From a virus, in the UHGV virus genome UHGV-1558314: a DNA stretch of 64,000 nucleotides, one strand, 5' to 3'. The notes beneath the pieces were generated by a model. It was not told the DNA's origin. It did not search any database and saw only the letters and a program-made list of their open reading frames with translations. Both the position numbers and the translations under genes were made by a program. Below are positions 7,620 through 57,700 of this stretch, piece after piece (positions within the stretch are counted from its first letter, which is position 1; each line of letters begins with the position of its first letter).

Positions 7620-10600
7620 TCAATTGCATGCTGAATGTCCGCAGTTGGTGCATCGAACACAGCCGTCAAACTTGACCATGTCACCACCGCATTCAGGGCA
7701 CTTTGCATACATTTTTGAGCCATCTTGAATATGCAGTTTCAATGCACGACCAATTGCTTTGCAGAATGTTCCGACAGATGCAAAGCTTTTTGCAGTTTGG
7801 TCGACAATTTCGCCAAGGTCAATACCATTGCGAAGCATCGTTGAGTATAGTCGAGTAATTGTTTGTTGCTCATCTGAACCAAGACGTTCTGATATATTGT
7901 CATAGTGCTGCAAGAATGACAAATTGTCACCAAGCTTGTAGTGCTTCTTATCAGTCTTTGTGATTGTCGTTTGTTCAATGCCTTGCAACTTGTCGAATTC
8001 ATCTTTGTCAAGTTCAAATGCAAAGATTTCATAAGGTCGACCGTCATCACAGCCTACAAGAATACACCACTTGCGCTTATACACTGACACGCAATACACT
8101 GCAGCAGGCAATACTGGTTTTCGTTTTGAGCGATGACCAGATTGCAAGATGTGCGACTTGTCTTTTGACTGCTTGTCATCTTTTACGAGAACACCTGCAC
8201 GTGAGCCGTCTCGATAAATTGTGCAGCCCTTGCAGCCAGATTTCCATGCAGTCATATAAATTTCACGAACGAGTTCTTTTGTTGCAGAGTTTGGAATGTT
8301 GACCGTTACAGAAATTGACGAGTCAATGTATTTTTGCAATGCACCTTGCAGTTTCACCTTGCCAATCCAGTCAACATCTTCAGTAGTTGCCTTGTAGTAT
8401 GGTGATTGAACAAGCAACTCATCAATGACTGCTTGTGGAGCATTTGATAGCCAAGCTTTGATACGAGACATTTCTGCTTCTGACCATTCAATGCCAGTAT
8501 CTTTGACAAGAGTAAATTTGCCATCGCCAAGCTGCAATCGTTTACAAATCCACTGCATCAATGGGTAGTGAACTACAGCATATTCAATGAACTTGTCACC
8601 AGTAGTCTCATCAATGAAGTTGATGTCAGCTTCATTATCAACTGCAGTAGGCTTGCGACGACGTTTATGCAGCGGCATAAAGACAGGTTCAATGCCAGAC
8701 GTTGTCTGAGTCATCAAAGCTGTAGTGCCTGTTGGCGCAATTGTGGTCGTGTTAATGTTTCGACGGCCAAATTGCTGATAAGTTTTGATATGCTCATCAT
8801 CAATCGGTTCAGATAGCATACGCTGTACGAACTTTGACTGCACATCTGTGTCATAGTCGAATATTGCAAATGCGCCACGAATCTTTGCTAAGTCAATCGA
8901 TGCTTCATAAGTAGCCTTTACAAGCCATTGTTGCATAGTGACTGCGAAGTCAATTGACTCTTGTGAACCATAGCGCAAGCCAAGCATTGCCATTGCATCG
9001 CCAAGTGCAAGGAAGCCCATGCCATATCTACGAGTATTTGTCAATTTGTCATAGACTTTGTGCCACAAGTCAAGTTCAGTCTTTTTGATGTCAAAGTCTT
9101 CTTTGTCTGACTGTACCTTTGCAATGATTCGTTGCACTGCTTCAATTTCAAGCTGTACAAGGTCATCCATGATGACTGCACAATCATACGTGTCTTTATA
9201 GAATGTCTCAAAGTCAAATGACGCATCAGCAGTCCAAGGATTAAGCACGTATGCAGTCAAATTGCGATGTGACAAAATGCAGCTTGCATATGCTGCAAGA
9301 GGTTGTTCACCACAATTTAATGTATTGACTACTTGCTTGTCATTGACTGCAATAAAGAAATTGTGGAAGTCTTCTACTGTACCATTGTACACATCTGCTT
9401 TGTTCATGTGACGTGTTGCAACGACTTTGACAATTGTATCACCAGTAGTGTCAATGTCTGCATATTTGCTGCAGCCACCTAATGCTGCACAAGCTTCACA
9501 GCAATATGACTGTTCACGATTGTCATAAGAGATTTCGAATTCTTTACCACAGCACTCGCATTGTTTGATAACTGTATTTCGTTCTGTTTTTACAAGCTCA
9601 TCAGTCTTCAATGCAATTGATAGCTTATCTGCGCTTGGCATATCAATTGCCCACAACGTGTCATTTGTCGCAAGGTCAATTGCATACTTGAAATCACCAT
9701 TAGCAAGTCTGAACTCATGATTTGCTGTGCAATTGATGACATGACCATCATCAAGCACAATCTGAATGATTTGTGCATTGTGTGCAGTCAATCTTGGTCG
9801 ACGCATTGTACGCACAACAAGCTTGCCATTAGCGTCAAGACAATACACTGGAATGTCTTCGCCGTTATCAGCAAGCTCTTTGAATGTCTTCAAGCCTGAG
9901 CCATCAGCAACAAGCACTTTTGTGTCACCAGTGAAGCATGGATTTGTTGAGCGCTCTTCATACATTTTGCCGTATGCTTTCGAGTTCGACTCTTCCATAA
10001 TGCGGTCCCAAAAGAATACACCAGGTTCTGCAGATGCCCATACATTATCAACAATTTTGTCAAACAATGCTTTTGCATCTGATGTCTTATGCAGCTCTTG
10101 ACCATTAGAGCCACGCCAAACATGCTCAAACTGTTGTTCTGCAAGCACTGCACGCATAAATGCATCAGTAAGCTTGATGGAAATGTTTGCGCATGTGATT
10201 TTCGTCAAGTCCTTTTTTGCATCAATGAACTTATCTGCATCAGGATGCTCAATTGACAATGACAACATCAATGCGCCACGCCTGCCATTTTGTGCAACTT
10301 CTTTTGTCGATGTTGAAAAACGTTCCATAAATGACACTACACCAGACGTCGTAACAGCACTGTTATGCACTTCTACGCCTTCTGGACGAATATGTGACAA
10401 ATCATGGCCGACACCACCACGACGTTTCATCAACTGAACTTGTTCTTCATCTATTTTGAAGATGCCGCCATATGAGTCTGCATCATTGCCTATTACATAG
10501 CAATTTGACATTGATGTGTAACCGCCAAGACCAATACCAGCCATTGGAGAACCACCAAGTACAAATCGCTTAAATGGCTCAAGCAAATATGCAAGTCGCT

Positions 10601-10841
10601 CTTTTGACAATACACGTTTGCCTGTCTGTTCTTCAAATTGTGATTCTATACGGTCAAATTCATTGACCCAGCGTTCATGCATATCAGACAATGAGTGTTC
10701 ATACAGATTGTCTTTGTCATGATGCAAGTATTTTGACATGCATATGTCAGCAGCCATTGAGTCGCCTGTAAATTCATGTGTCAGTGTAGTGTGCACTTCA
10801 GCATATTCAGGCGACCCAATTTGAATAGGACGTTTTGTCAT
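7620..10841 (-). CDS. nrdJ: Class II (adenosylcobalamin-type) ribonucleotide reductase with mini-intein and C-terminal zinc ribbon
   Basis: Motif STNP-[insert]-CGEQPL reconstitutes the NPCGEQ active-site loop; C-terminal CPECGG...CVRCTNCGH; ORF-track start at 10901 is TTG inside the promoter, true ATG (MTKRPIQ) at 10839-10841. Confidence 0.9.
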   Translation of the reverse strand: MTKRPIQIGSPEYAEVHTTLTHEFTGDSMAADICMSKYLHHDKDNLYEHSLSDMHERWVNEFDRIESQFEEQTGKRVLSKERLAYLLEPFKRFVLGGSPMAGIGLGGYTSMSNCYVIGNDADSYGGIFKIDEEQVQLMKRRGGVGHDLSHIRPEGVEVHNSAVTTSGVVSFMERFSTSTKEVAQNGRRGALMLSLSIEHPDADKFIDAKKDLTKITCANISIKLTDAFMRAVLAEQQFEHVWRGSNGQELHKTSDAKALFDKIVDNVWASAEPGVFFWDRIMEESNSKAYGKMYEERSTNPCFTGDTKVLVADGSGLKTFKELADNGEDIPVYCLDANGKLVVRTMRRPRLTAHNAQIIQIVLDDGHVINCTANHEFRLANGDFKYAIDLATNDTLWAIDMPSADKLSIALKTDELVKTERNTVIKQCECCGKEFEISYDNREQSYCCEACAALGGCSKYADIDTTGDTIVKVVATRHMNKADVYNGTVEDFHNFFIAVNDKQVVNTLNCGEQPLAAYASCILSHRNLTAYVLNPWTADASFDFETFYKDTYDCAVIMDDLVQLEIEAVQRIIAKVQSDKEDFDIKKTELDLWHKVYDKLTNTRRYGMGFLALGDAMAMLGLRYGSQESIDFAVTMQQWLVKATYEASIDLAKIRGAFAIFDYDTDVQSKFVQRMLSEPIDDEHIKTYQQFGRRNINTTTIAPTGTTALMTQTTSGIEPVFMPLHKRRRKPTAVDNEADINFIDETTGDKFIEYAVVHYPLMQWICKRLQLGDGKFTLVKDTGIEWSEAEMSRIKAWLSNAPQAVIDELLVQSPYYKATTEDVDWIGKVKLQGALQKYIDSSISVTVNIPNSATKELVREIYMTAWKSGCKGCTIYRDGSRAGVLVKDDKQSKDKSHILQSGHRSKRKPVLPAAVYCVSVYKRKWCILVGCDDGRPYEIFAFELDKDEFDKLQGIEQTTITKTDKKHYKLGDNLSFLQHYDNISERLGSDEQQTITRLYSTMLRNGIDLGEIVDQTAKSFASVGTFCKAIGRALKLHIQDGSKMYAKCPECGGDMVKFDGCVRCTNCGHSACN
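9315..9938 (-). other. Mini-intein (about 208 aa) inserted at the RNR catalytic cysteine
   Basis: Starts CFTGDTKVL, block F-like VYNGTVEDFHNFFIAVN, ends ...VVNTLN followed by +1 Cys; Cys-rich insert KQCECCGKEFEISYDNREQSYCCEAC; no LAGLIDADG domain seen. Confidence 0.7.
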
Positions 10842-10882
10842 TGTAACAGTGCATTTAAGTGTTTTAACAGTTTTATGTATAA

Positions 10883-10911
10883 ATTGTACAACAATGGGCA
10901 AAATTTTGCAT
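10883..10911 (-). promoter_or_regulatory. Sigma70-like promoter (ATGCAA-N17-TACAAT) for RNR
   Basis: Plus attgtacaac at 10883-10892, ttgcat at 10906-10911. Confidence 0.5.
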
Positions 10912-14133: not shown

Positions 14134-14146
14134 ATGGATGGCGAAC

Positions 14147-14173
14147 TGTACACATTGTACACATTGTACACAC
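14147..14173. repeat. Tandem 9-bp repeat TGTACACAT x3 (three -10-like TACAAT units on minus strand)
   Basis: tgtacacat tgtacacat tgtacacac, 14-40 nt upstream of holin-like start. Confidence 0.7.
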
Positions 14174-14234: not shown

Positions 14235-14276
14235 AAATGAAAGTGGCTCAGATGTATATCTGAGCCACTTTCATTT
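14235..14276 (-). terminator. Hairpin terminator (19-bp perfect stem)
   Basis: aaatgaaagtggctcagat gtat atctgagccactttcattt. Confidence 0.65.
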
Positions 14277-14293: not shown

Positions 14294-15949
14294 TTATGCA
14301 AGCAATGTTTGCAGCATGTAGCAGCCTTTTGCATATGCGACAATTGCTTTTGCAGGATTGTTCTTGATGTATGCAGGCAACTTGAGCCAAATCAGTGCTA
14401 CAAGAACTTTCTGTCGCAGCGTTAAATCAAGTTCATCAATGTTGTAGCCAATGACTTTTGCTCTGACATCGCCATCAACATAATCGAATTGCTGATATGC
14501 TGACTGATTGAATGCATCATAGCCAGACAAGCCATATGCAAACTTTGCAATGTCATAATCGATGTCACCAGTCATCTTGACGTCACCAAAGTAGCCTCTT
14601 GGGTCAATGAACATGCATTTTGATGAATCTGCACTGAACATTGTATTTGACGTATTCGGGTCACCATGAATGAATGACCAATTTTCGCATGCATAGTCAA
14701 TTGAATCTTCTTGTGACAAGAAGAATCTTAACTTGCTCATCAGTTCATCGAATGGCATCAATGCAATACCATTGAATGATTTGATGCCTGCTACAAGTGA
14801 CTTGACTTCAGCATATCTTGCAATAGTAGTCTCAATGTACTCTTTGCGCATTGCGTCAATCATTTGCTGTCTGCTAACTGGCCAAATCTCGTCATTGTCA
14901 AGATTACTTGCATGCAATTCATTGATTGACTGTTTGAATGTTGTCATGCAGCCACGAGCAATTGCAGCATATCTACGCTCAATATCAACTTTGTTGAGGA
15001 ACTGATGTACAGTCACTCCGTTAATTTTCGACATTTTGATGAAGTCTTCACCAGTTTCAAATATCGATGGAATGACTGTCGATTCTGCATTCATAGCATG
15101 ACGATACCATTCTTGTTCTTTCTGAATGAGTGCCAAACCACGAGCATTTGTAGCAGATTTCGTAACAATATCGCCATCAATGCTAATGCTATTGAAATAC
15201 CGCACTTCATTATCACGTGCAGCCTTGACTGCTTCACTGACAAATGCTCCGCGTTCGCCATATGAATGACAGCCAGCAATTTCATATCTGTCTACAAATG
15301 TAACGTTGGTCATTAAATCAGCAAAATCAGCATTGTTATCATTATGCTGCATATCAATGACATTGTTATGAAACGCTGCAGGTACATAATATGCGCCAAC
15401 AATGCCACTATGATATGTAGACTCATACAAATGGTCGAGCACATATGCTTCTGCATCTGCATAAGACCCTACTTTGTAGAATGCATCAGTAGGAATGAGA
15501 TGCAGTCTGCAATCAATGTCATTTGACGTGCAACAAGTTATGCAGCCATTTTTGAATTCTGCAAACGGCAATTCAATATCGCCAAGCCACACATCAGACC
15601 AATGATAGAATACATTGCAATCACCAATGTTGTTAGCAACAAACATTGCTACATCTGCGCATGCTTTTGCTGAGCCATCAGCTTTGTCATGCACAATAGT
15701 TGATAACTTGATATCTGGTGCAAATGCTGCAGCATGTTCATGAATCATTGCTACATGAGTGTCATTTGCACATGCAACAATGACTTCATCAAACTGTCGA
15801 GCATAGGATGTCAAAATCTTTGCAAGCACTGTTTGTTTGCCTGCATTTACAAGAGTTTTAGGGATGTAATTGTTGCCGGTCATTGTTGACATGCGAGTGC
15901 CCAACCCACATGCAATGATTGCTAACACATTTGGATATTGATGAGACAT
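14294..15949 (-). CDS. Bifunctional sugar-phosphate nucleotidyltransferase / APH-family kinase
   Basis: N-terminal VLAIIACGLGTRMSTMTGNNYIPKTLVNAGKQ (NTP-transferase G-loop); C-terminal FIHGDPNTSN and CMFIDPRG (APH/choline-kinase Brenner motifs); ATG at 15947-15949. Confidence 0.8.
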   Translation of the reverse strand: MSHQYPNVLAIIACGLGTRMSTMTGNNYIPKTLVNAGKQTVLAKILTSYARQFDEVIVACANDTHVAMIHEHAAAFAPDIKLSTIVHDKADGSAKACADVAMFVANNIGDCNVFYHWSDVWLGDIELPFAEFKNGCITCCTSNDIDCRLHLIPTDAFYKVGSYADAEAYVLDHLYESTYHSGIVGAYYVPAAFHNNVIDMQHNDNNADFADLMTNVTFVDRYEIAGCHSYGERGAFVSEAVKAARDNEVRYFNSISIDGDIVTKSATNARGLALIQKEQEWYRHAMNAESTVIPSIFETGEDFIKMSKINGVTVHQFLNKVDIERRYAAIARGCMTTFKQSINELHASNLDNDEIWPVSRQQMIDAMRKEYIETTIARYAEVKSLVAGIKSFNGIALMPFDELMSKLRFFLSQEDSIDYACENWSFIHGDPNTSNTMFSADSSKCMFIDPRGYFGDVKMTGDIDYDIAKFAYGLSGYDAFNQSAYQQFDYVDGDVRAKVIGYNIDELDLTLRQKVLVALIWLKLPAYIKNNPAKAIVAYAKGCYMLQTLLA

Positions 15950-15971
15950 TGTGTAGTATTGTTTATATGAA

Positions 15972-16000
15972 TATTGTACAATATGCATTGCTATTTTGCA
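15972..16000 (-). promoter_or_regulatory. Sigma70-like promoter (TTGCAA-N17-TACAAT)
   Basis: Plus attgtacaat at 15972-15981, ttgcaa at 15995-16000. Confidence 0.55.
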
Positions 16001-16248
16001 AGATGACAATGCTTACGCCATACTGCAATTTCAACATCTGTAGCAAAATCAAAGTGCAAGCCATGCAATTGTTTCATGTCATATTGACGTCTTGCAATAT
16101 ACTTATTGCCAACTCGCTCAACAACAGAACCAATTTCTACTACATTTTTAGAATGTCGTGGCTCATGTAATGGCACTCTGAATATGTATCTGCCATCTAA
16201 TGTTGACATTATGTCACCATTGTCAATTATGCCTGTTTGCCTGCTCAT
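15991..16248 (-). CDS. Hypothetical small protein (85 aa)
   Basis: ORF track only. Confidence 0.4.
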   Translation of the reverse strand: MSRQTGIIDNGDIMSTLDGRYIFRVPLHEPRHSKNVVEIGSVVERVGNKYIARRQYDMKQLHGLHFDFATDVEIAVWRKHCHLAK

Positions 16249-16263
16249 TGTTAAAGCATCAAG

Positions 16264-16938
16264 TTATTTTTGAATGTCTACAAGTTCTGCTGCAATTCTA
16301 TCATATGCTAGCATGTGCTTAATTGCGTCATCAAGCAGCTTGTTAAATTCAAGATACTGCTGCAGCACTTTGTCATTCTGCAATGACTGCTCAAGCGCAG
16401 CATAATCACCTGCAAACGGGCGATTCATTGACAGGCCAAAGTTCTTCGCACATTTAGCATAAAATGCATTGTACTCTGCAGCATCAATTGGTGTCGCGTC
16501 ATGAGCTTTAAGCGCACTTTCACTGAGCAACGGGATGGTTTGCTTTCTGCAACGAGTAAACTCGTCTTTGTCAACATACAACACAGAACAACGAACGACA
16601 TTGTCTTCTGCATTCATACCACCTGTCAACAAATCCATTTCCCAATCGAAGCAAATGTTGTAGATGTACAGCATCACAGTTCGATGCTTGTTATCAACAA
16701 ACTTCCAATATCGAGACTTTTTGCAGATAGCTTTGATATGCTGCAAGTCATGCATAAACTTATCATGCGATATCGCATCAAAGCGAGGCAATGATTTGTT
16801 GTCAATGAATGTGTTTGCTGCATCTGCACAACGTTTGAATTCTGCTTGATGCATATTCAGCTCTTCTATGCGCTTTGCTACAAGCGCTTCATATTCTGCT
16901 TTTGCAAGAGCAAGTCTTGCTTCATACAAACTTTGCAT
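16264..16938 (-). CDS. Hypothetical protein (224 aa)
   Basis: ORF track; no motif. Confidence 0.6.
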   Translation of the reverse strand: MQSLYEARLALAKAEYEALVAKRIEELNMHQAEFKRCADAANTFIDNKSLPRFDAISHDKFMHDLQHIKAICKKSRYWKFVDNKHRTVMLYIYNICFDWEMDLLTGGMNAEDNVVRCSVLYVDKDEFTRCRKQTIPLLSESALKAHDATPIDAAEYNAFYAKCAKNFGLSMNRPFAGDYAALEQSLQNDKVLQQYLEFNKLLDDAIKHMLAYDRIAAELVDIQK

Positions 16939-16963
16939 ATTTGTGTATGTTTATGAGTTTCTG

Positions 16964-17420
16964 TTAAAATTTGCCATCTGCTACTTGAAAACATTGATAG
17001 CCAAGCTCTCGCCATTTAGCGACCATGGAATCGCGGTCTTCAAGCACAAATGCAATTTGTTGCAGTTCGTCTTCAGACAATGTTTCTACAAGCAATTCAG
17101 GTTTGACAAGCGTATCATGACGTTTATCACCATCTTTTCGCATAAGAATTTGCGGATTGACGATTCTGCCATCTGTATGCTGTGCAAGCCAAACTTCTGT
17201 CATCTGTCTGCAGCTTTCACGACGACCTGTGCAGAATATGATTCTGTAGCCAACTTGCTGCAAATCGCAAAGCAAGTCAAGCACAGTCATAATAGGCTTG
17301 TCTTCATAACAGTGTGCATAAAATGCATCCCCAATCTTTGTTTGATTGTTGAAGATATTTTAGACGGTCGCCAACTTTTGAAATTGTTCCGTCAATGTCG
17401 CATATGATGATATTTGCCAT
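16964..17420 (-). CDS. HAD-superfamily phosphatase interrupted by an apparent frameshift (two ORF fragments)
   Basis: N-fragment from ATG 17418-17420: MANIIICDIDGTISKVGDRLKYLQQSNKDWG... (DxDGT motif I); C-fragment 16964-17290 has IIFCTGRRE, RKDGDKR, EDRD; frames differ, shift localises to C4 run at 17329-17332. Confidence 0.6.
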
Positions 17421-17439
17421 GATATGTATGCTTATGAAA

Positions 17440-17463
17440 GGAAGAGCTCAATTGAGCTCTTCC
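17440..17463 (-). terminator. Palindromic hairpin ggaagagctcaattgagctcttcc
   Basis: 24-nt perfect palindrome downstream of gene 17495..18367. Confidence 0.5.
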
Positions 17464-17494
17464 TGATAGTCAACTTGATAAACCTCTACGAAAA

Positions 17495-18367
17495 TCAAGC
17501 CTGACTACTTTTGTTGATTACGAGATACTTGTATCGTTCTTTGATTGTGATGTTCTTTGATTTTGCTGCCTCGAGTTCTTTACGTTCCTTGGAGGAATAG
17601 TTGAACTTGATGTAGTCGGAGAACAATTCGGGCTTATCTGCTACTTCATTGTTCTTGACTTCTTTTACAAGAGTTTGCTGAAACTCATTGATTGTAGTGA
17701 AACCAAGGAATGACTGGAACTTGTTAAGCGGAAACAACTTATCTGTGTTGTCCTCGAATGTCGGGAATTCGTCGGAATACGTAATTTCGATTTGGTCTAC
17801 GAAATATCTAAGTTTTTCCCAAGGTTCCTTGCCAATGAGGAGAATGTTCTGATGGTCAAGTTTTTCCTCGAACATTTCCAGGAGGCATTCGTATGATTTT
17901 ACGAGACGAACTCCAGGATATGTAATTGATGCAATTGAACGAGGTTTGTGAGTTGTCTTGACTTCTTTATTGTACGTTTCCTCATCAATGCAATAGATGT
18001 ATCGCTTGACCTTGTCGTATTCTTTCGGAAGATAGTTGTTGTCAAGGAATTGCTTGTCAACTACAATGAAACTGAAAGGATAGAGTTCATTGAATCGTTG
18101 ACGAAGCTGTTCTGTTGCAAGGAAGAAATGCGAGCCATCTTTTGCTGCAAATTCCATATTTGAATTGCATCCTGCATATGCAATGTATCTGTTTCGCTTC
18201 CATTTAAGGAATCGACTTACCAGATTCTTTTCGAAGATATCCTTGTATTTGAAGTTAGTGTCCCAGTACTCCTTAACAATTCCATCTTGCATTTTTCTTG
18301 ACAATTTTGAATTGTCTACCGGCCTATCAGTAAAAACTGAAGGTTTGTTTGCATTGTATAATCCCAT
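17495..18367 (-). CDS. Hypothetical Lys-rich protein (290 aa), late-promoter class
   Basis: ATG at 18365-18367 (MGLYNANKPSVF) preceded by AACCTCTACTACA; ORF-track N-terminal extension crosses the promoter. Confidence 0.7.
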   Translation of the reverse strand: MGLYNANKPSVFTDRPVDNSKLSRKMQDGIVKEYWDTNFKYKDIFEKNLVSRFLKWKRNRYIAYAGCNSNMEFAAKDGSHFFLATEQLRQRFNELYPFSFIVVDKQFLDNNYLPKEYDKVKRYIYCIDEETYNKEVKTTHKPRSIASITYPGVRLVKSYECLLEMFEEKLDHQNILLIGKEPWEKLRYFVDQIEITYSDEFPTFEDNTDKLFPLNKFQSFLGFTTINEFQQTLVKEVKNNEVADKPELFSDYIKFNYSSKERKELEAAKSKNITIKERYKYLVINKSSQA

Positions 18368-18461
18368 TGTAGTAGAGGTTTTTGTTAAATTTATTATATA
18401 TGTATATATTACAACGACAGTGCAAAATTTGCACTGTCGTAGCATAAAAGTTTACACATTT

Positions 18462-18806
18462 TTACAAATATGAGTACAGTTTGTTCATAACTCGTTCAAT
18501 TGCAAATTCAACACCATATTGCAACAACTGTTCAGTGCTAAATGTCTTTGCTGCATGTGCATGCGCAACAATATGCTTTGTCTGTGCATATAATATCCAA
18601 GTATCAGTTGGCCTGTCATAAGTTACTGTCAGTCTACATGTTTGCAACACAAACTCTTGACTAAAGTATTCTCTTCGCCAAAACTCTGGTTCTGCAATAT
18701 GCAAATCAAGCCAAGCAAACTCAAACAGAATTTGTTTAAGTTGACGTTGATGCTTACGTTCAGCACGATATGAGTTGCTGAATAGCCATTTAATGATGTT
18801 CATCAT
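18462..18806 (-). CDS. Hypothetical protein (about 114 aa)
   Basis: ATGA start/stop overlap with upstream SIS gene. Confidence 0.5.
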   Translation of the reverse strand: MMNIIKWLFSNSYRAERKHQRQLKQILFEFAWLDLHIAEPEFWRREYFSQEFVLQTCRLTVTYDRPTDTWILYAQTKHIVAHAHAAKTFSTEQLLQYGVEFAIERVMNKLYSYL

Positions 18807-19519
18807 TTGCAATCATTATGCTGAGTATGAATTGCGTTGCCCTGTGAATCCAAGCGAATCGCAGTTTGCATTGCGACTTCAGATTGTGTTTGTTCTGCTT
18901 GACGAGCTCTTTGAAGTCCACCTCCAGGGTGACATGTGTAAAATCTATCAAAGTCAGTGCCAAGCTGTTCAGCAACAGACAACATGATGTTATCACCAAT
19001 GAGCTGAGATGCTAGCAGAGAATTCGTCGGAATTCGTGGATTGCGTGAGTCCTCGTCAATTGCTGGCAATGATACAAGCAAGTCTGCCCAAGCATTCATA
19101 TCAGTGACCTTGCCACCAGCAAAGTTAATGCCGATGATTTGGCAATTCGGTGCAAGCAATTCACGATGTTCACGAAGATATGTCATTGCAGTTGCAAGTT
19201 CAGATGTGTTGCCTGTTTTGCTGAATGCTACAATAACATCATTGTTTCGAATCATACCAAAGTCACCATGCATTGCATGTACTGCATCAAAGAACGCAGC
19301 ATCAAGTGAAATTGAATAGCATGTTGCAGCAAGTTTTTCACAGCAATGCACATTTTTGCCAATGCCAGTGAACAATACTTTGCCATCAGACTTCAATGCA
19401 TTTGCAATAATGTCTGCTGCAATGCCAAGAACATCATATTGCGCATCTGAAATGTTGTTGTGCCATGCTACAAGCGACTCGACTGATGCAGCAATGCCTT
19501 TGTGTACAAGTGTTTTCAT
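18803..19519 (-). CDS. SIS-domain sugar-phosphate isomerase (arabinose-5-phosphate isomerase KpsF/GutQ-like, no CBS domains)
   Basis: GKVLFTGIGKN...KLAATCYSISLDAAFFDAVHAMHGDFGMI...DVIVAFSKTGNTSEL matches the KpsF/KdsD SIS signature. Confidence 0.8.
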   Translation of the reverse strand: MKTLVHKGIAASVESLVAWHNNISDAQYDVLGIAADIIANALKSDGKVLFTGIGKNVHCCEKLAATCYSISLDAAFFDAVHAMHGDFGMIRNNDVIVAFSKTGNTSELATAMTYLREHRELLAPNCQIIGINFAGGKVTDMNAWADLLVSLPAIDEDSRNPRIPTNSLLASQLIGDNIMLSVAEQLGTDFDRFYTCHPGGGLQRARQAEQTQSEVAMQTAIRLDSQGNAIHTQHNDCK

Positions 19520-19537
19520 TTTGTGATGTTTGAAGGT

Positions 19538-20221
19538 TCAAAGAAACTTGAGTTTTGACAGCATTTCAGTGTCTTGTTCTGTGTTGATGCCAAGCTCTTG
19601 CATGACATCAAGCAACGCAGACCATAATTGCTCATATGATTGCCCACCCCCATTCATGACAACTGCATCAACGAACAACTCGTCGATGTGCTGCTCACTT
19701 GAATGATTGATGTTTTGCATGACATCATCATTAACAATCTTTATGAGTTTGAAGCCTCTTGAGCGCAATGCGGTCGCTTCATTTGGATATCGACAGTCAC
19801 CAACACAAATGAGAGCTTCATTATGACAGTTGTCAAGTCGATACAACAAACTATTGACAAAGAAGTCTTCACCATACAGTTTCTTGAGCACATCTGAAAC
19901 ATCAAGATGCACATTGCGAATCGATGAACCTGCAAACTCTACAAAGTGTTTTTGTTTGAATGCATTGTTATGCAAGTCTTGCAAATTGTAGCCCAGTGTA
20001 CTTGCAATAAATGCTTTCAGTGGCTTTGCAAAGCACTCATATGCAAGATTGCAGCCACATGACCAGTATGGATTTGCTTCAATTTGCTGCAAAGTTGATG
20101 TGTAAATGCTATCAATTACAGTGAACTTGCATTTAGTCATGACTCGAATCATCGCCCAAGCCAAATCTTTGCCTACGCCTGCATGACCAACAAGCGCAAT
20201 TTTTGTTATGTCATCATTCAT
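19538..20221 (-). CDS. P-loop kinase, deoxynucleoside monophosphate kinase-like
   Basis: Walker A-like IALVGHAGVGKD at N-terminus; size and position resemble T4 gp1-type dNMP kinases; function tentative. Confidence 0.6.
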   Translation of the reverse strand: MNDDITKIALVGHAGVGKDLAWAMIRVMTKCKFTVIDSIYTSTLQQIEANPYWSCGCNLAYECFAKPLKAFIASTLGYNLQDLHNNAFKQKHFVEFAGSSIRNVHLDVSDVLKKLYGEDFFVNSLLYRLDNCHNEALICVGDCRYPNEATALRSRGFKLIKIVNDDVMQNINHSSEQHIDELFVDAVVMNGGGQSYEQLWSALLDVMQELGINTEQDTEMLSKLKFL

Positions 20222-20603
20222 TGCACCACTGTTTAAGAGTCACAAAATTGTTGAAGTCTGCATAAAAGTCATCGCCACCGTTAAGCATTGCGACATTCTC
20301 AAGTTCATTGAGAATGATTTGCTTATCAATGACTATTGCAAGAGCGTCAAAGTCTTCTTTTGATTGCAAATCAAGTAGCACAGGATGACCTTTGAGTCTT
20401 GTAGTTAATGTTGTTGGCAGTCTATGCACAGACTTCTTTTTCTTTGACTGCGTAGGATGTTTTGAGCGCTTTCTTGTAGCAGTCAGCTGAATATCATAGT
20501 CAATTTCAAGCAAACCTGCATCTTGCATTACAAAGTTGAGATTGACATACACAGGATGCTTTTGCTGAATGTCTATGAATTCTTGTAATTTGTCGTTTAT
20601 CAT
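20214..20603 (-). CDS. Hypothetical protein (129 aa)
   Basis: ATG at 20601-20603 (MINDKLQEF) downstream of promoter; ORF-track start crosses hairpin and promoter. Confidence 0.5.
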   Translation of the reverse strand: MINDKLQEFIDIQQKHPVYVNLNFVMQDAGLLEIDYDIQLTATRKRSKHPTQSKKKKSVHRLPTTLTTRLKGHPVLLDLQSKEDFDALAIVIDKQIILNELENVAMLNGGDDFYADFNNFVTLKQWCNE

Positions 20604-20655: not shown

Positions 20656-20661
20656 ACAAAA

Positions 20662-20689
20662 CAAGACCAACTCAATTGAGCTGGTCTTG
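20662..20689 (-). terminator. Hairpin with GCTCAATTGAGC-like core
   Basis: caagacca actcaattgagc tggtcttg, one mismatch. Confidence 0.5.
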
Positions 20690-20707
20690 CGGTCATATGT
20701 AGACTTC

Positions 20708-21265
20708 TTAAAATTTGGATAGACTCGTAGTTGAATCAATGCGCAAAGAATCTGCTATAGGTGCGCAATCATCAATTGGGCGACTTGCAGGCTTAACTTT
20801 GAGCATGTACATTCTGCAGTTGCCAATATCTATAAGGGAACCAGAACGTGTCATATAATCACAACCCAAAATGCCAACAACTTCATGACCAAGTGCTTTG
20901 CTAAGCTGAACTAAAATAGGCGAAATGTCGTCAATAAACATGTCCAGCTGTACAGAACCATTTGCGATAGTAATGTCTGCATCTATTGCATGAGATACTT
21001 GAAGAGCTCCTGTGACATATGATAGTCGCTTAACTGAACGCTCTTTGCCAACCATGTCATGAGTTGCAACAAATGTGCTGTCAATCAATGACAATGATGC
21101 GCCAGTGTCAAGCAAAAGCCATGTGTCGACACCATTGACATTTGCATGCACAAATGGCAGGCTCTTCAAAACAATCGGTGACTGTGATTGCTGCAATGCT
21201 TCATTACACATTGTCAGCGTCATAATCGCAAGTAGCGATATAAGAAACAATTTGAATGTTTTCAT
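20708..21265 (-). CDS. Retropepsin-like aspartic protease with signal peptide / possible lipobox
   Basis: N-terminal MKTFKLFLISLLAIMTLTMC; active-site LLDTGAS; GILGCDYM downstream. Confidence 0.75.
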   Translation of the reverse strand: MKTFKLFLISLLAIMTLTMCNEALQQSQSPIVLKSLPFVHANVNGVDTWLLLDTGASLSLIDSTFVATHDMVGKERSVKRLSYVTGALQVSHAIDADITIANGSVQLDMFIDDISPILVQLSKALGHEVVGILGCDYMTRSGSLIDIGNCRMYMLKVKPASRPIDDCAPIADSLRIDSTTSLSKF

Positions 21266-23474: not shown

Positions 23475-24494
23475 CTATTGCTTATGCCAGCCATATGATG
23501 CCTGACCAGCATCATACACTTCTACAAAACCATGGTCGTACATAAAATCTTCATTACGAGTGCCCTTGCCCCCATTAGTACCAAGAATACGGTCTGCACC
23601 ATGCATAAGCAGCATATTATTTGTGATATGTTGCTTTGTCAGCATATTGAACCAATGTTTGCTATATGACAAGCCAAGACCATCAAAGCCCAGCTTTGTG
23701 TACACGCCACCATCAAACTTGCTCAAATCACAATACGACAACACAGATTCAGGGTCATATGTCTTGATAAAGTGCTTGAATATGCGTTCGGCGCCACCTA
23801 CGACTTTTGTTGCTGCACAAAGACGCAGTAGTTCATACTGATATCGCTTATTGTATCGTGGACGACCAAATGTCATAAGCTGATGTATGACATAGCCGCC
23901 AAGCAATTCAAGTGGATGGCCTTCAATCAACGCAAGATTGATAAAATTGCCTGAGCACTTGCCTTGCAAATGATGTTCAATCAAAAATTGATTTGCAGTA
24001 TACTTGTCAATTTCAACAACTTTAAGCTTGCGAGCATATACAATCTTTGATTTGTCTACGATTTGATGCTTGATGTGATTGATAACTTTCTTGGCGTCAT
24101 CCCAATCCCACACATGAATGCAATGAAAGCCTGCAGCTTTTGCAATGTCTGTTTTCTTTGCATGAATATCACAAGGCAAATGCGAATCTTTTGCAGCATG
24201 CATAAATAGATGCTCAAATGAATGCGTGCTATTATGTGAAAATGTGGGATTGATGTTGATGACGATGTTGTCATGTCTAAAATCGAAGACTTCATCACCA
24301 ATAACAAAGTTGCGCTCAAAATCTATACCGACATGTTTGAGTAATACTTGATGCCACACATCTTTATAGGCTGATTCAAGATTGCTTAGCTCATCACAGT
24401 TTGCAATATTTTTGTAACGTTGAATAGCAGCATCAAAGTCAAGATTGACTTCAGCGTAGTCTGCATTTTTATCGTAGTGAAATTTTGAGCTCAT
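23475..24494 (-). CDS. Homing-endonuclease-like protein, family paralog 1 (Vsr/DUF559-like nuclease motif)
   Basis: IVININPTFSHNSTHSF ... GFHCIHVWDWDD and C-terminal VEVYDAGQ shared with paralogs; ATG at 24492-24494. Confidence 0.75.
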   Translation of the reverse strand: MSSKFHYDKNADYAEVNLDFDAAIQRYKNIANCDELSNLESAYKDVWHQVLLKHVGIDFERNFVIGDEVFDFRHDNIVININPTFSHNSTHSFEHLFMHAAKDSHLPCDIHAKKTDIAKAAGFHCIHVWDWDDAKKVINHIKHQIVDKSKIVYARKLKVVEIDKYTANQFLIEHHLQGKCSGNFINLALIEGHPLELLGGYVIHQLMTFGRPRYNKRYQYELLRLCAATKVVGGAERIFKHFIKTYDPESVLSYCDLSKFDGGVYTKLGFDGLGLSYSKHWFNMLTKQHITNNMLLMHGADRILGTNGGKGTRNEDFMYDHGFVEVYDAGQASYGWHKQ

Positions 24495-24515
24495 GTGTAT
24501 AATTTGTATGAGATT

Positions 24516-24544
24516 ATTGTACAACATGCAAATGCATGTTGCAT
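24516..24544 (-). promoter_or_regulatory. Sigma70-like promoter (ATGCAA-N17-TACAAT)
   Basis: Plus attgtacaac at 24516-24525, ttgcat at 24539-24544. Confidence 0.5.
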
Positions 24545-24598
24545 TTGATGCAAAGTACTGCGTACACAACATAAAGTACAAGTTTGCTTTTGACAGAC

Positions 24599-25621
24599 TT
24601 ACTTTGTATTGCTACGCGTCATTGTTAAATGACCGCAATCATACACATCAACTTCTGTTTTGCCAAGCATGCATGTATGACAATTTATTTTGAAATCTAC
24701 TGCAGTGTAGTCAGGATAGTTTAGCGGAGATTCTTTTGACAAATCAATTTCAATTGTGTCAGTAGTTTTAAGTTGTTCAGTGCCTGCAATGATATCTGCA
24801 ATGAGATTGATAACATCTTCTTGTGAATCCCAGTCAAACACAGTTATGCAACGATAGCCTGCATCAAGCGCAAGTTTTGTTTTGTTGTAATGGTATTGCG
24901 CATCAAGTGGCTCATTTTTGTCAGACAATTTTGTTGCATATCGAAACCCAAGCGTGCTGTTATGCGATACGGTAGGATTGATTTCTACAAGCAATTTATG
25001 TGTGCCATCAATATCATATGACAAATCATATGAATAACGTTGAATTCTAACTGCGTCAAGCTGCATGTCAATGTGTAAATGACGCAATATTATTGCATGC
25101 CAATGCTTGTTGATGCCCGATATTATATTTGCAGCTTCCATGCATTTTGGATGCATTACAAAATACGGCACGCCAAAGCGTTCTTGTATTGTTTTGTATG
25201 CTTTTGCATTAGAATCTTTACCATAAATGCTGCCATAACGCTTAAGCTTTGTAGCAATCAACTTGTCTATGTCACCCATAGCATTGCCAAAGCGCTCAAT
25301 CTTATGCTGTTTAATGGCATCTTTGTCGCCAAACATATGACCATATCGAGACATCTTTGTTGCTTTGACTGCATTGATGTTGCAACCTGCACCATATCGA
25401 GCATGCATAGTTTGCATGCGTTTAGCAATGTGCTCTTGTGATTGCTTAATTTGTTCGGTGCCAAATTTGCGCAAATTATTGATACGCTTAGTAACATCTT
25501 GTTTAATGACTGAATGCGTGGTTGTTCGCTTGCCAAGTCTTACACATTCTGTAGTTTTGAGCAATGTATCTCGTTCAAACTCAATTTGTGCAATTCGTGC
25601 AACAATTTCTTTAGATGTCAT
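24599..25621 (-). CDS. Homing-endonuclease-like protein, paralog 2 (tandem K/R-Y/F-G repeats + Vsr-like nuclease motif)
   Basis: Repeats ...MSRYGHMFGD...IERFGNAMGD...LKRYGSIYGKD...; LLVEINPTVSHNSTLGF ... GYRCITVFDWD ... VDVYDCGH; ATG at 25619-25621. Confidence 0.75.
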   Translation of the reverse strand: MTSKEIVARIAQIEFERDTLLKTTECVRLGKRTTTHSVIKQDVTKRINNLRKFGTEQIKQSQEHIAKRMQTMHARYGAGCNINAVKATKMSRYGHMFGDKDAIKQHKIERFGNAMGDIDKLIATKLKRYGSIYGKDSNAKAYKTIQERFGVPYFVMHPKCMEAANIISGINKHWHAIILRHLHIDMQLDAVRIQRYSYDLSYDIDGTHKLLVEINPTVSHNSTLGFRYATKLSDKNEPLDAQYHYNKTKLALDAGYRCITVFDWDSQEDVINLIADIIAGTEQLKTTDTIEIDLSKESPLNYPDYTAVDFKINCHTCMLGKTEVDVYDCGHLTMTRSNTK

Positions 25622-25640
25622 TTTTAATAGCATATTGATA

Positions 25641-25670
25641 ATTATACAACATACAAATGAGTTTTGCATT
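25641..25670 (-). promoter_or_regulatory. Sigma70-like promoter (-10 TATAAT variant)
   Basis: Plus attatacaac at 25641-25650, ttgcat at 25665-25670. Confidence 0.4.
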
Positions 25671-25700
25671 TTTGATGTAGCAATTGCTTGCACAGTTTGC

Positions 25701-25737
25701 AAAAAAGAACCGCTTGCAATCTAATTGCAAGCGGTTC
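25701..25737 (-). terminator. Rho-independent terminator (14-bp stem + U tract on minus strand)
   Basis: aaaaaa gaaccgcttgcaat cta attgcaagcggttc. Confidence 0.7.
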
Positions 25738-54072: not shown

Positions 54073-54073
54073 A

Positions 54074-54959: not shown

Positions 54960-54988
54960 TATTGTACAACATGTGTTAACTTTTTGCA
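54960..54988 (-). promoter_or_regulatory. Sigma70-like promoter (ATGCAA-N17-TACAAT)
   Basis: Plus attgtacaac at 54960-54969, ttgcat at 54983-54988. Confidence 0.5.
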
Positions 54989-57689: not shown

Positions 57690-57700
57690 ATTATTATCTT

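What the first reader, a model, noticed from the sequence alone, without database searches (positions are those of the whole stretch)
14294..20221. Candidate nucleotide-sugar biosynthesis module (SIS isomerase + HAD phosphatase + fused nucleotidyltransferase/kinase) next to a dNMP-kinase-like gene
Four enzyme activities sufficient to turn a pentose/heptose phosphate into an NDP-sugar are encoded within about 6 kb: a KpsF/KdsD-like SIS-domain isomerase (18803..19519), an HAD phosphatase (16964..17420), and a fused NTP-transferase + APH-family kinase (14294..15949). Unknowns interleaved with them (16264..16938, 17495..18367, 20214..20603) are candidate glycosyltransferases. A P-loop dNMP-kinase-like gene follows, and dUTPase-like and MazG-like genes lie elsewhere in the window. 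Phage DNA glycosylation is well known (T4 glucosyl-hmC; arabinosyl-hmC has been reported for the T4-like phage RB69), so this may be a hypermodification precursor pathway; host surface modification is an alternative. The gene combination is my inference and I cannot name a described homologous system.
Basis: partly seen in the sequence, partly recalled or inferred. Interest (0 to 1): 0.85.

Follow-up and report, generated by a model that had tools for sequence, protein, structure and literature searches.

The report
Phage UDP-arabinose-type DNA-sugar module
This phage gene cluster is a distant relative of the recently described phage pathway that makes UDP-arabinose to sugar-coat cytosines in viral DNA, but here it sits in a different phage lineage and is paired with a T4-type hydroxymethylcytosine enzyme, so the final DNA modification may differ from the known one.

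Summary
The genes are real and sit at the stated coordinates. The core is an arabinose-5-phosphate isomerase (18803..19519) and a fused nucleotidyltransferase plus kinase (14294..15949). They are homologous to RB69 gp55 and gp52:53, the counterparts of the tested enzyme AfhE of phage HY126, which make UDP-arabinofuranose for DNA cytosine glycosylation. So a described homologous system exists (2018 proposal, 2025-26 biochemistry).

Three sub-claims fail or weaken:
- The 'unknown' 17495..18367 has a DHFR fold, not a glycosyltransferase fold. The other unknowns give no glycosyltransferase signal.
- The HAD gene is of the polynucleotide-kinase-phosphatase type, unrelated to RB69 gp51, and carries a one-G frameshift that a 95%-identical relative lacks.
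- The glycosyltransferases and the base-modifying enzyme lie outside the window.

I recovered the 175.6-kb source contig. About 15-29 kb beyond the window it encodes:
- four GT-B-like candidates;
- a KdsC-like phosphatase domain;
- a nucleotide kinase and a dCMP deaminase;
- a canonical ThyA;
- a second ThyA homolog with the T4 gp42 (dCMP hydroxymethylase) fingerprint, not the D169N 5-hydroxycytosine fingerprint of all known arabinosylating phages.

Verdict: a new variant of a known kind, of moderate interest.

The parts
14294..15949 (-). Bifunctional sugar-1-phosphate nucleotidyltransferase (N-terminal) plus APH/choline-kinase-fold sugar kinase (C-terminal). Homolog of RB69 gp53:52, the counterpart of HY126 AfhE.
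   Evidence: Pfam NTP_transferase 4.7e-5, APH 0.04. phrog_4098 2.7e-76, full length. blastp to RB69 gp52 1e-30 and gp53 5e-7. tblastn finds 372 phage records at 28-31% identity over the full length. Catalytic motifs are invariant in alignment A6. dN/dS 0.08 against the relative.
15991..16248 (-). 85-aa ORF of unknown function inside the unit.
   Evidence: No family hit. Conserved at 99% in relative L026, dN/dS 0.13.
16264..16938 (-). 224-aa ORF of unknown function. No glycosyltransferase signal.
   Evidence: No Pfam, PHROG or NCBIfam hit. Found only in close relatives. dN/dS 0.12.
16964..17420 (-). HAD phosphatase of the polynucleotide-kinase-phosphatase (PNKP) type, interrupted by a one-base frameshift.
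   Evidence: Pfam HAD_PNKP 1.9e-23 for the C-terminal part and 2e-30 for the intact allele of the relative. PDB Pnkp1 4xrp 5.9e-15 and T4 Pnk 1ltq 2.5e-8. Two reading frames. No similarity to RB69 gp51.
17329..17332 (-). G4 run (CCCC on the + strand) that causes the HAD frameshift. The relative has G3.
   Evidence: Identical in the JGI, ENA and Logan assemblies, which are 100% identical over 8.7 kb, so their independence is not established.
17495..18367 (-). 290-aa DHFR-fold protein of unknown activity, conserved near the fusion gene across the lineage. Not a glycosyltransferase.
18462..18812 (-). 116-aa ORF of unknown function.
   Evidence: No significant hit. 86% identical in L026, dN/dS 0.18.
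18803..19519 (-). Single-domain SIS arabinose-5-phosphate isomerase (KdsD/GutQ/KpsF type, no CBS domains).
   Evidence: blastp to RB69 gp55 3e-17. 38% identical to the MA9V-2 KpsF/GutQ gene.
19538..20221 (-). T4 gp1-like deoxynucleoside monophosphate kinase (P-loop GHAGVGKD).
   Evidence: phrog_139 4.3e-25. Pfam DNMK 1.9e-5, below the curated cutoff.
20214..20603 (-). First ORF of the unit (130 aa from the internal ATG), function unknown.
   Evidence: The 160-aa reading would start inside the hairpin at 20690..20661, so the shorter start is more likely. No family hit.
20661..20690 (-). Terminator-like hairpin closing the upstream aspartyl-protease gene. It marks the 5' limit of the unit.
   Evidence: 13-bp stem, 6 GC pairs, T-rich tail.
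14235..14276 (-). Strong terminator-like hairpin 18 nt after the fusion gene's stop. It marks the 3' limit of the unit.
   Evidence: 19-bp stem followed by a T-run.
53698..54072 (-). MazG-type nucleotide pyrophosphohydrolase, a candidate dCTPase. It lies between the two halves of the split DNA polymerase.
   Evidence: Pfam MazG 8.1e-9. Only generic MazG relatives among phages.
54074..54565 (-). dUTPase / dCTP-deaminase-like protein.
   Evidence: Pfam dUTPase 3.5e-10, DCD 1.3e-6.

Best explanation
The unit 20603..14294 (minus strand) is the sugar-donor half of a phage DNA-cytosine glycosylation system.

Proposed mechanism:
1. The SIS enzyme isomerises host ribulose-5-phosphate to D-arabinose-5-phosphate.
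2. The C-terminal kinase domain of the fusion protein phosphorylates C1, giving arabinose-1,5-bisphosphate.
3. A HAD phosphatase removes the 5-phosphate. Which one does this is unresolved. It could be the PNKP-type HAD in the unit, which is frameshifted in this genome, or the KdsC-like domain protein encoded next to the hydroxymethylase gene outside the window.
4. The N-terminal nucleotidyltransferase domain condenses arabinose-1-phosphate with UTP to give UDP-arabinofuranose.
5. The adjacent gp1-like dNMP kinase phosphorylates the modified dCMP towards the triphosphate.
6. Outside the window, a gp42-like ThyA homolog makes the modified dCMP, predicted to be 5-hydroxymethyl-dCMP.
7. After replication, up to four GT-B transferases attach the sugar or sugars to the modified cytosine in DNA. 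This shields the genome from restriction and CRISPR nucleases.

Shown here: homology, domain architecture, catalytic motifs, gene neighbourhood and selection.
Inferred: the substrates, the nucleotide used, the sugar identity, the base identity and the DNA target.
For: - Fusion protein homologous to RB69 gp52 and gp53, and SIS protein to RB69 gp55. It is also homologous to the AfhE-like gene of Dhakavirus IME341 (1e-40).
- The literature assigns these proteins to Ru5P -> Ara5P -> Ara1,5P2 -> Ara1P -> UDP-Araf, with AfhE and AfhF of HY126 tested biochemically (PMC13326640).
- The SIS protein is of the API type, not the GmhA type.
- Both catalytic motif sets of the fusion protein are invariant.
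- 905-aa HAD-SIS-nucleotidyltransferase-kinase fusions in metagenomic and genomic database proteins of unknown organism link the four activities.
- Hairpins bracket the unit and selection is purifying.
- The same genome encodes:
  - a second ThyA homolog with the T4 gp42 fingerprint (D143, T147, M165, N168, D169, D177);
  - a canonical ThyA;
  - a dCMP deaminase and a nucleotide kinase;
  - MazG and dUTPase/DCD.
- GT-B candidates:
  - phrog 'beta-glucosyltransferase' 1.2e-7;
  - Pfam Exostosin_GT47 and Glyco_trans_1_2 at about 1e-4;
  - two paralogous pairs.
- The cultured phage MA9V-2 shares the DHFR-like, API and fusion genes, the gp42-like ThyA homolog, the kinase and the KdsC-like gene.
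Against: - Identity to the characterised enzymes is only 28-31%, so sugar and nucleotide specificity could have shifted.
- No homolog of the AfhF/RB69 gp51 phosphatase was found.
- The in-unit HAD is of the DNA/RNA-end phosphatase type, is frameshifted here, and elsewhere travels with dUTPase.
- The metagenomic relatives L003 and L005 carry the fusion and DHFR-like genes without a nearby SIS or HAD gene.
- The unit lies between capsid and lysis genes, not in a replication cluster as in RB69.
- The glycosyltransferase model has low confidence (pLDDT 59), and the candidates show no sequence similarity to the RB69 transferases.
- No chemistry was measured.
Confidence: 0.6

Rival explanations
1. 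The module makes an activated sugar for a non-DNA acceptor. The acceptor could be virion proteins, which would fit the position between capsid and lysis genes, or host LPS or capsule as in superinfection exclusion or seroconversion. The DNA chemistry would then stop at plain or glucosylated hmC.
For: - The unit sits between the Gp23-like capsid gene region and the endolysin.
- The closest non-phage homologs of the fusion protein, some named from Lachnospiraceae, Akkermansiaceae and Butyrivibrio metagenome bins, have no link to DNA modification.
- The GT-B top hits also include sucrose-phosphate synthase, BshA and PimA.
- A KdsC-like domain and an API recall the Kdo/LPS pathway.
Against: - The fusion protein is closer to the phage AfhE family (E about 1e-38 to 1e-55) than to the non-phage database homologs (about 1e-22).
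- The unit includes a dNMP kinase.
- The genome carries a full T4-like set for replacing dC.
- One GT candidate matches the phage beta-glucosyltransferase PHROG and the T4 DNA glucosyltransferase structures.
- No KdsA or KdsB gene was seen in the roughly 125 kb of the contig that I read.
Confidence: 0.15
2. The fusion protein activates something other than arabinose. It could be another pentose or hexose, or a LicA/LicC-like choline kinase plus cytidylyltransferase. In that case the SIS enzyme feeds a different pathway.
For: - The kinase domain belongs to the APH/choline-kinase fold, and JGI names some homologs 'choline kinase'.
- L003 and L005 lack a nearby API gene.
- Identity to the tested enzyme family is only about 29%.
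Against: - Homology to RB69 gp53:52 runs over the full length, with both domains in the same order.
- An API-type isomerase lies in the same transcription unit, as it does in MA9V-2, in RB69 and in the 905-aa fusions.
- A Gram-negative host could supply Ara5P through its own KdsD where the phage has no API. This last point is established knowledge of the Kdo pathway, not a tool result.
Confidence: 0.12
3. The adjacency is partly coincidental. The unit would be a mixed nucleotide-metabolism cassette (dNMP kinase, DHFR-fold protein, PNKP-type phosphatase) into which two sugar genes happen to be inserted. In this particular genome the pathway would be decaying, as the HAD pseudogene suggests.
For: - The frameshift in the HAD gene.
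- The HAD homolog lies next to dUTPase in L028.
- The DHFR-fold protein could simply partner the canonical ThyA.
- Shared synteny among related phages does not prove functional coupling.
Against: - All module genes that could be compared, including the HAD C-terminal part, have dN/dS of 0.18 or less against the relative.
- The relative has an intact HAD gene, so the frameshift is recent or an assembly error.
- API and the fusion gene remain linked at 27% capsid identity in MA9V-2.
- MA9V-2 has a separate annotated DHFR next to its DHFR-like gene.
Confidence: 0.1

Closest known systems
Phage arabinosyl-5-hydroxycytosine system (HY126 Afh genes; RB69 gp45-gp55 plus gp3; Acinetobacter phage DLP3 gp76-83; Serratia, Shewanella Thanatos and other Straboviridae)
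   Same: - API-type SIS isomerase and a fused nucleotidyltransferase plus kinase, homologous to RB69 gp55 and gp52:53.
- The genome also has a ThyA-superfamily dCMP-modifying enzyme, an extra nucleotide kinase, a MazG-type pyrophosphatase and several GT-B transferases, so the pathway logic is the same.
   Different: - The ThyA homolog keeps Asp169 and matches T4 gp42. RB69 and IME341 have Asn169.
- No homolog of the gp51/AfhF phosphatase. A PNKP-type HAD (frameshifted) and a KdsC-like domain are present instead.
- The GT candidates show no sequence similarity to RB69 gp3 or gp46:47.
- A DHFR-fold protein is conserved near the fusion gene.
- The sugar genes lie 60-75 kb from the base-modifying and transferase genes instead of in one cluster.
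- The host lineage is a non-Straboviridae myovirus group with only 27%-identical Gp23-like capsids.
T4 hydroxymethylcytosine glucosylation (gp42, gp1, gp56, cd, alpha-gt/beta-gt)
   Same: - gp42-like active-site fingerprint.
- gp1-like dNMP kinase.
- dCMP deaminase.
- A pyrophosphatase candidate.
- A GT-B candidate hitting the beta-glucosyltransferase PHROG and the T4 glucosyltransferase structures.
   Different: - T4 uses host UDP-glucose and encodes no sugar-nucleotide pathway. This phage encodes an API and an AfhE-like enzyme.
- The ThyA homolog is overall closer to ViI/M6-type hydroxymethylases (31-33%) than to gp42.
Bacterial nucleotide-heptose pathway (GmhA isomerase, HldE/HddA kinase, GmhB phosphatase, HldE/HddC nucleotidyltransferase)
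   Same: The same four-step logic: sugar-phosphate isomerase, anomeric kinase giving a bisphosphate, HAD phosphatase, then nucleotidyltransferase. HldE is likewise a kinase-nucleotidyltransferase fusion. This comparison rests on established knowledge.
   Different: - The SIS enzyme is of the KdsD/GutQ type, not the GmhA type (NCBIfam 3e-19 against 0.0026).
- The kinase has the APH/choline-kinase fold, not the ribokinase or GHMP fold.
- The substrate is a pentose, not a heptose.
LicA/LicC phosphocholine activation
   Different: - LicA and LicC are separate proteins, and no isomerase is involved.
- The window protein aligns over its full length with the phage AfhE family.
Dihydrofolate reductase / RibD C-terminal reductase fold (for 17495..18367)
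   Different: - No significant sequence or profile match to E. coli DHFR or to Pfam.
- By eye, the folate-binding acid and the Gly-rich NADPH motif are not conserved in family alignment A2.
- It carries extra N- and C-terminal extensions.
- MA9V-2 carries it in addition to an annotated DHFR.

Membership tests
Afh-type phage arabinosyl-5-hydroxycytosine DNA modification system | Arabinose-5-phosphate isomerase (single SIS domain, KdsD/GutQ type) | tested here: met
   18803..19519: phrog_5670 2e-28. RB69 gp55 3e-17. KpsF, GutQ and KdsD at 1e-19 to 1e-21. PDB 5uqi, 3etn and 2xhz, with the HPGG motif.
Afh-type phage arabinosyl-5-hydroxycytosine DNA modification system | Bifunctional AfhE-like enzyme: N-terminal sugar-1-P nucleotidyltransferase fused to a C-terminal Ara5P kinase | tested here: met
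   14294..15949: RB69 gp52 1e-30 and gp53 5e-7. IME341 homolog 1e-40. phrog_4098 2.7e-76. Motifs invariant. Homology and architecture only; activity was not tested.
Afh-type phage arabinosyl-5-hydroxycytosine DNA modification system | AfhF / RB69 gp51-type HAD phosphatase | tested here: not met
   No BLAST similarity between RB69 gp51 and the window or the read parts of the contig. The HAD present is of the PNKP type and is frameshifted. The only link is a weak phrog_1238 hit at 8e-4.
Afh-type phage arabinosyl-5-hydroxycytosine DNA modification system | ThyA homolog with the D169N signature (5-hydroxy-dCMP synthase) | tested here: not met
   The 293-aa homolog (contig 111048-111929, outside the window) has D169 with N168, M165, T147 and D177, as T4 gp42 does. 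RB69 gp48 and IME341 have Q168/N169. The signature is taken from PMC13326640.
Afh-type phage arabinosyl-5-hydroxycytosine DNA modification system | GT-B DNA arabinosyltransferases | tested here: inconclusive
   Four GT-B-like candidates outside the window. None is similar in sequence to RB69 gp3 or gp46:47. The structural model has pLDDT 59.
Afh-type phage arabinosyl-5-hydroxycytosine DNA modification system | UDP-arabinofuranose produced; arabinosylated cytosine in virion DNA | not testable with these tools
   Needs enzymology and LC-MS/NMR of nucleosides.
T4-type 5-hydroxymethylcytosine pathway | dCMP hydroxymethylase (gp42) active-site pattern: L143D, N177D, D169 retained | tested here: met
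   The same pattern occurs in MA9V2_146. This is a prediction from residues; the product was not measured.
T4-type 5-hydroxymethylcytosine pathway | gp1-type dNMP kinase | tested here: met
   19538..20221: phrog_139 4.3e-25. Pfam DNMK 24.8 bits, below the 27.1 cutoff.
T4-type 5-hydroxymethylcytosine pathway | dCTPase (gp56-like) that removes dCTP | tested here: inconclusive
   MazG domain 8.1e-9, but its phage relatives are generic MazG proteins. Specificity unknown.
T4-type 5-hydroxymethylcytosine pathway | Reliance on host UDP-glucose (no phage sugar-nucleotide pathway) | tested here: not met
   The phage encodes an API and an AfhE-like enzyme.
Nucleotide-heptose pathway (GmhA/HldE/GmhB) | GmhA-type sedoheptulose-7-P isomerase | tested here: not met
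   NCBIfam GmhA E = 0.0026 with no passing stretch, against KdsD 3e-19.
Dihydrofolate reductase (for 17495..18367) | DHFR fold plus a conserved folate-binding acid and NADPH motif | tested here: inconclusive
   The fold is met. The profile comparison with E. coli DHFR is not significant. The motifs are not visibly conserved in A2, but no structure-based residue mapping was available.

The most novel reading that the evidence does not exclude
This lineage attaches arabinofuranose (or another pentose) to 5-hydroxyMETHYLcytosine rather than to 5-hydroxycytosine. The lineage comprises 175-kb phages from metagenomes, probably human-gut, plus the cultured Chryseobacterium phages MA9V-1 and MA9V-2. 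This would be the 'ara-hmC' structure first assigned to RB69 and later revised away. The sugar may be extended to an oligosaccharide by two paralogous pairs of GT-B enzymes. A conserved DHFR-fold protein and a KdsC-like phosphatase would be previously unrecognised pathway components.
Probability: 0.3. Interest if true: 0.7.

Novelty: new variant of a known kind. Interest (0 to 1): 0.5.

Why it matters
According to the 2026 NAR paper, every arabinosylating phage described so far belongs to or is close to the Straboviridae. All of them attach the sugar to 5-hydroxycytosine made by a flavin-dependent D169N ThyA homolog.

This window shows the same UDP-arabinose-type donor genes in a very different myovirus lineage. 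There they are combined with a T4 gp42-type (folate-dependent, hydroxymethylating) fingerprint and unrelated GT-B enzymes.

If this is confirmed, donor-sugar modules and base-activation modules are mixed and matched between phages, and a new glycosylated cytosine would be predicted. That bears on which restriction, type IV and CRISPR defences such phages escape. It also bears on sequencing and cloning of gut-phage DNA.

A cultured relative, MA9V-2, makes the prediction directly testable.

Tried and rejected
- Megablast of the 6.4-kb region against 50,697 phage records found no match.
- BLAST of RB69 gp45, gp46:47, gp48, gp49, gp50, gp51 and gp3 against the window and the read parts of the contig found nothing significant. 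The RB69-type transferases, phosphatase and synthase are therefore absent at the sequence level.
- The glycosyltransferase hypothesis for 17495..18367 is rejected by structure.
- A profile comparison of that family with E. coli DHFR was not significant, so the DHFR assignment rests on fold only.
- phmmer of the fusion protein against PDB found no hit.
- Pfam, PHROG and NCBIfam gave nothing for the 85-, 116-, 130/160- and 224-aa ORFs.
- The sigma-70 promoter scan was not above shuffled expectation (46 found against 37.6 +/- 7.8), so I draw no promoter conclusion.
- I tried to show that the HAD frameshift is real using three assemblies. They are 100% identical over 8.7 kb and may derive from the same reads, so this is inconclusive.
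- The 94%-identical contig L025 ends before the frameshift site.
- The MA9V-2 annotation 'Kdo8P phosphatase' had no Pfam support, but PDB phmmer did support it.
- dN/dS for the dNMP kinase and the aspartyl protease failed because of indels.
- About 50 kb of the contig (1-5,632 and 130,884-175,564) was not read.

Full report
OBSERVATION. The window is a stretch of a large phage genome in which most genes, including all those from 4 to 37 kb, run on the minus strand.

- The 551-aa product of 14294..15949 has an N-terminal NTP_transferase domain (Pfam 4.7e-5) and a weak C-terminal APH-type kinase signal. It matches phrog_4098 over its whole length (2.7e-76).
- In an alignment with eleven homologs the nucleotidyltransferase loop (G15, G17, R19, P30, K31) is invariant. 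So are the kinase motifs (H428-G-D430...N435 and D449-P-R-G452).
- The 238-aa product of 18803..19519 is a single SIS domain of the arabinose-5-phosphate-isomerase type. It hits phrog_5670 at 2e-28 and NCBIfam KpsF, GutQ and KdsD at 1e-19 to 1e-21, against 0.0026 for the heptose isomerase GmhA. Its PDB relatives are 5uqi, 3etn and 2xhz, and the GIGK and HPGG motifs are present.
- 19538..20221 is a gp1-like dNMP kinase (phrog_139 4e-25).
- MazG and dUTPase/DCD-like genes lie at 53698..54565.

THE HAD GENE.
- The DxDxT start (MANIIICDIDGT...) and the 108-aa C-terminal ORF are in different frames.
- A 174.6-kb relative from the same metagenome, IMGVR_UViG_3300045988_152288, has an intact 151-aa ORF. 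Its protein is 95% identical, with GGG where this genome has GGGG at 17329..17332.
- The frameshift is also present in an ENA and a Logan assembly. All three are 100% identical over 8.7 kb, so they may not be independent.
- The protein is a polynucleotide-kinase-phosphatase-type HAD: Pfam HAD_PNKP 2e-30, Pnkp1 4xrp 5.9e-15, T4 Pnk 1ltq 2.5e-8.
- It shows no detectable similarity to RB69 gp51.
- In another viral contig its 48%-identical homolog lies beside a dUTPase-like gene, not beside sugar genes.

WHAT THE MODULE IS RELATED TO. tblastn of the fusion protein finds 372 phage records, nearly all matching over the full length at 28-31% identity.
- The best are Chryseobacterium phages MA9V-2 and MA9V-1. 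After them come T4-like phages such as JS98, IME281/341 and Klebsiella F48, and by organism count phages of Acinetobacter and Serratia.
- Direct BLAST gives RB69 gp52 at 1e-30 and gp53 at 5e-7 for the fusion protein, and RB69 gp55 at 3e-17 for the SIS protein.
- Thomas et al. 2018 (PMC6024577) proposed these RB69 genes as the UDP-arabinose module.
- Lee et al. 2026 (PMC13326640) set out the pathway, citing He et al. and Mahler et al. 2025. API converts Ru5P to Ara5P. The AfhE C-terminal domain makes Ara-1,5-P2. The HAD phosphatase AfhF gives Ara1P. The AfhE N-terminal domain makes UDP-Araf. GT-B enzymes then arabinosylate 5-hydroxycytosine, which a D169N ThyA homolog produces.
- Independent support comes from 905-aa database proteins of unknown organism. 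They fuse HAD, SIS, nucleotidyltransferase and kinase in one chain (P0020, P0022-24, P0092).

THE 'UNKNOWNS'.
- The 290-aa product of 17495..18367 belongs to a small family: 9 clusters in the word-indexed search and 14 representatives in the exhaustive one.
- A profile comparison with E. coli DHFR is not significant. The usual DHFR motifs are not visibly conserved in the family alignment, so its activity is unknown.
- This gene stays close to the fusion gene in two metagenomic relatives: immediately upstream in L003 at 47% identity, and about 1 kb upstream in L005 at 44%.
- It also lies about 2.4 kb from the fusion gene in MA9V-2 at 27% identity, although the capsid proteins of MA9V-2 and this phage are only 27% identical.
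- The 85-, 116-, 130/160- and 224-aa ORFs have no family hits and occur only in close relatives. They are nevertheless under purifying selection (dN/dS 0.12-0.18).

TRANSCRIPTION UNIT. On the minus strand a terminator-like hairpin at 20690..20661 follows the upstream aspartyl-protease gene. A 19-bp hairpin with a T-run at 14276..14235 follows the fusion gene. The nine genes between them overlap or are separated by at most 94 nt. Promoter-like matches are not above chance.

THE REST OF THE GENOME.
- An exact 42-mer placed the window on IMGVR_UViG_3300045988_149023, which is JGI contig Ga0495776_186596 of 175,564 bp. The window is contig positions 32,001-96,000.
- Walking along the contig recovered positions 5,633-130,883.
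- The window itself has no ThyA homolog or recognisable glycosyltransferase.
- The contig has two ThyA homologs. One (352 aa) is a canonical thymidylate synthase: 41% identical to E. coli ThyA, with C146, D169 and N177.
- The other (293 aa, contig 111,048-111,929) carries L143D, H147T, Q165M, C168N, D169 and N177D. That is the pattern of T4-type gp42 dCMP hydroxymethylase (RB18 gp42).
- RB69 gp48 and the Dhakavirus IME341 homolog, both from AfhE-carrying phages, have Q168/N169 instead.
- MA9V-2's ThyA homolog is 44% identical to the 293-aa protein and has the same gp42-like pattern.
- Next to the 293-aa gene lies a 364-aa protein whose N-terminal 150 residues resemble KdsC/YrbI sugar-phosphate phosphatases (2p9j 5e-5, 3ij5 3.6e-4). 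It has a homolog in MA9V-2.
- Between 6 and 13 kb further on lie two paralogous pairs of GT-B-like genes: 376 with 391 aa, and 518 with 410 aa.
  - The 391-aa protein hits the phage 'beta-glucosyltransferase' PHROG at 1.2e-7.
  - The 410- and 518-aa proteins give weak Exostosin_GT47 and Glyco_trans_1_2 hits.
- The same region also holds a nucleotide kinase 35% identical to MA9V-2's 'thymidylate kinase', a dCMP deaminase and a thioredoxin.

MOST LIKELY MECHANISM. The window unit supplies the activated sugar and one nucleotide kinase. The genes outside the window supply the modified base and the transferases.
- I consider it likely (0.6) that the product is UDP-arabinofuranose or a close pentose analogue, used to glycosylate modified cytosines in phage DNA.
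- The phosphatase step is unresolved. The in-unit PNKP-type HAD is one candidate. It is intact in the relative, frameshifted here, and in the covered 114 of 218 kb of MA9V-2 no homolog was found.
- The KdsC-like domain protein is the other candidate. It is the one conserved in MA9V-2.
- From residue signatures alone, the base is predicted to be 5-hydroxymethylcytosine rather than 5-hydroxycytosine.
- None of the substrates, products or the DNA target was measured.

RIVALS.
- A non-DNA acceptor, such as virion or cell-surface glycan. This fits the position of the unit between capsid and lysis genes and the non-phage relatives of the fusion protein. It does not fit the dNMP kinase in the unit, the T4-like dC-replacement gene set, or the DNA-glucosyltransferase-like hits.
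- A different activated molecule, for example phosphocholine. This fits the kinase fold and the absence of an API gene near the fusion gene in L003 and L005. It does not fit the full-length homology to the AfhE family or the conserved API linkage.
- A partly coincidental or decaying cassette. This fits the frameshift and the nucleotide-type HAD. It does not fit the strong purifying selection or the retention of the API-fusion linkage in MA9V-2.

COMPARISON AND NOVELTY.
- The unit works like the Afh/RB69 UDP-arabinose module and shares its two core enzymes by homology.
- Two defining features of that system were tested and not met: the AfhF-type phosphatase and the D169N synthase. The transferases are also not homologous in sequence. 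I therefore do not file it as a member, but as a new variant of a known kind.
- The pathway logic also parallels the bacterial nucleotide-heptose route, but the isomerase and kinase families differ.
- It does extend the module to a distinct phage lineage, probably from the human gut. A 94%-identical fragment comes from a sample labelled ZELL14, and the best phage hit of the ThyA homolog is a human faecal phage contig. The lineage has a cultured relative on Chryseobacterium.
- It also predicts a different base-sugar combination.

I score interest at 0.5. The most novel reading not excluded is a true arabinosyl-hydroxymethylcytosine, possibly oligoglycosylated. I give it a probability of about 0.3.

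Noticed in passing
window 51370..52662 and 56184..57725 (minus strand): The family-B DNA polymerase is split into two genes: an exonuclease/N-terminal part and a polymerase C-terminal part. They are 3.5 kb apart. Between them lie a DUF7487 gene, a 116-aa ORF, dUTPase, MazG and a 275-aa ORF. MA9V-2 has the same split, with a TnpB gene between the halves.
   Followed up: partly
window 23475..24581, 24599..25702, 27771..29060, 46786..47736 (plus fragment 46480..46728), 54976..56175: Five paralogs (26-38% identical) of a DUF7487-containing protein family. They are scattered around the capsid gene and inside the split polymerase locus. The pattern looks like a selfish or homing-type gene family.
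   Followed up: partly
window 7620..10901: The ribonucleotide reductase large subunit carries an intein (precomputed Pfam Ribonuc_red_lgC plus Intein_splicing). The relative L005 has an intein with an HNH domain in the homologous gene.
   Followed up: no
window 20708..21265: A retropepsin-like aspartyl protease (Pfam Asp_protease_2 1.3e-6) with a hydrophobic N-terminus. It is conserved directly downstream of a large structural-region protein in the relatives L003 and L005. This is an unusual protease type for a tailed phage.
   Followed up: no
window 14146..14171 (minus strand): A threefold tandem GTGTACAAT repeat lies between the strong terminator after the fusion gene and the next gene (start at 14133). 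ATATACA-like motifs recur 10-40 nt upstream of several start codons. This may be a phage promoter or regulatory element.
   Followed up: no
window about 18440 and about 17455 (minus strand): Additional perfect hairpins lie upstream of the DHFR-like gene (GACAGTGCAAATTTTGCACTGTC) and upstream of the HAD gene (GGAAGAGCTCAATTGAGCTCTTCC). They could subdivide the unit or act as RNA processing sites.
   Followed up: no
proteins P0020, P0022-P0024, P0092 (database hits, not in the window): Proteins of 905-926 aa fusing HAD, SIS, NTP-transferase and kinase domains in one chain. This is a Rosetta-stone link for the four-step pathway. The source organisms were not named in the collection.
   Followed up: partly
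window 41054..42172 and 43074..43523: Two genes with TnsA-like / endonuclease-I-like nuclease N-terminal domains (Pfam 9e-5 and 2e-18).
   Followed up: no
contig 28,486-28,986 (L008 15583..16083), left of the window: A third HAD-family gene (Pfam HAD_SAK_2, phrog_1818 1.2e-21) lies near the topoisomerase genes. It is another possible phosphatase for the pathway.
   Followed up: no
L003 and L005 (metagenomic relatives): These relatives (capsid 74-76% identical) keep the DHFR-like and fusion genes, but the SIS, HAD and dNMP-kinase genes of the window unit are replaced by other small genes (DUF488-N3a, Sequestin). The unit is therefore modular within the lineage.
   Followed up: partly
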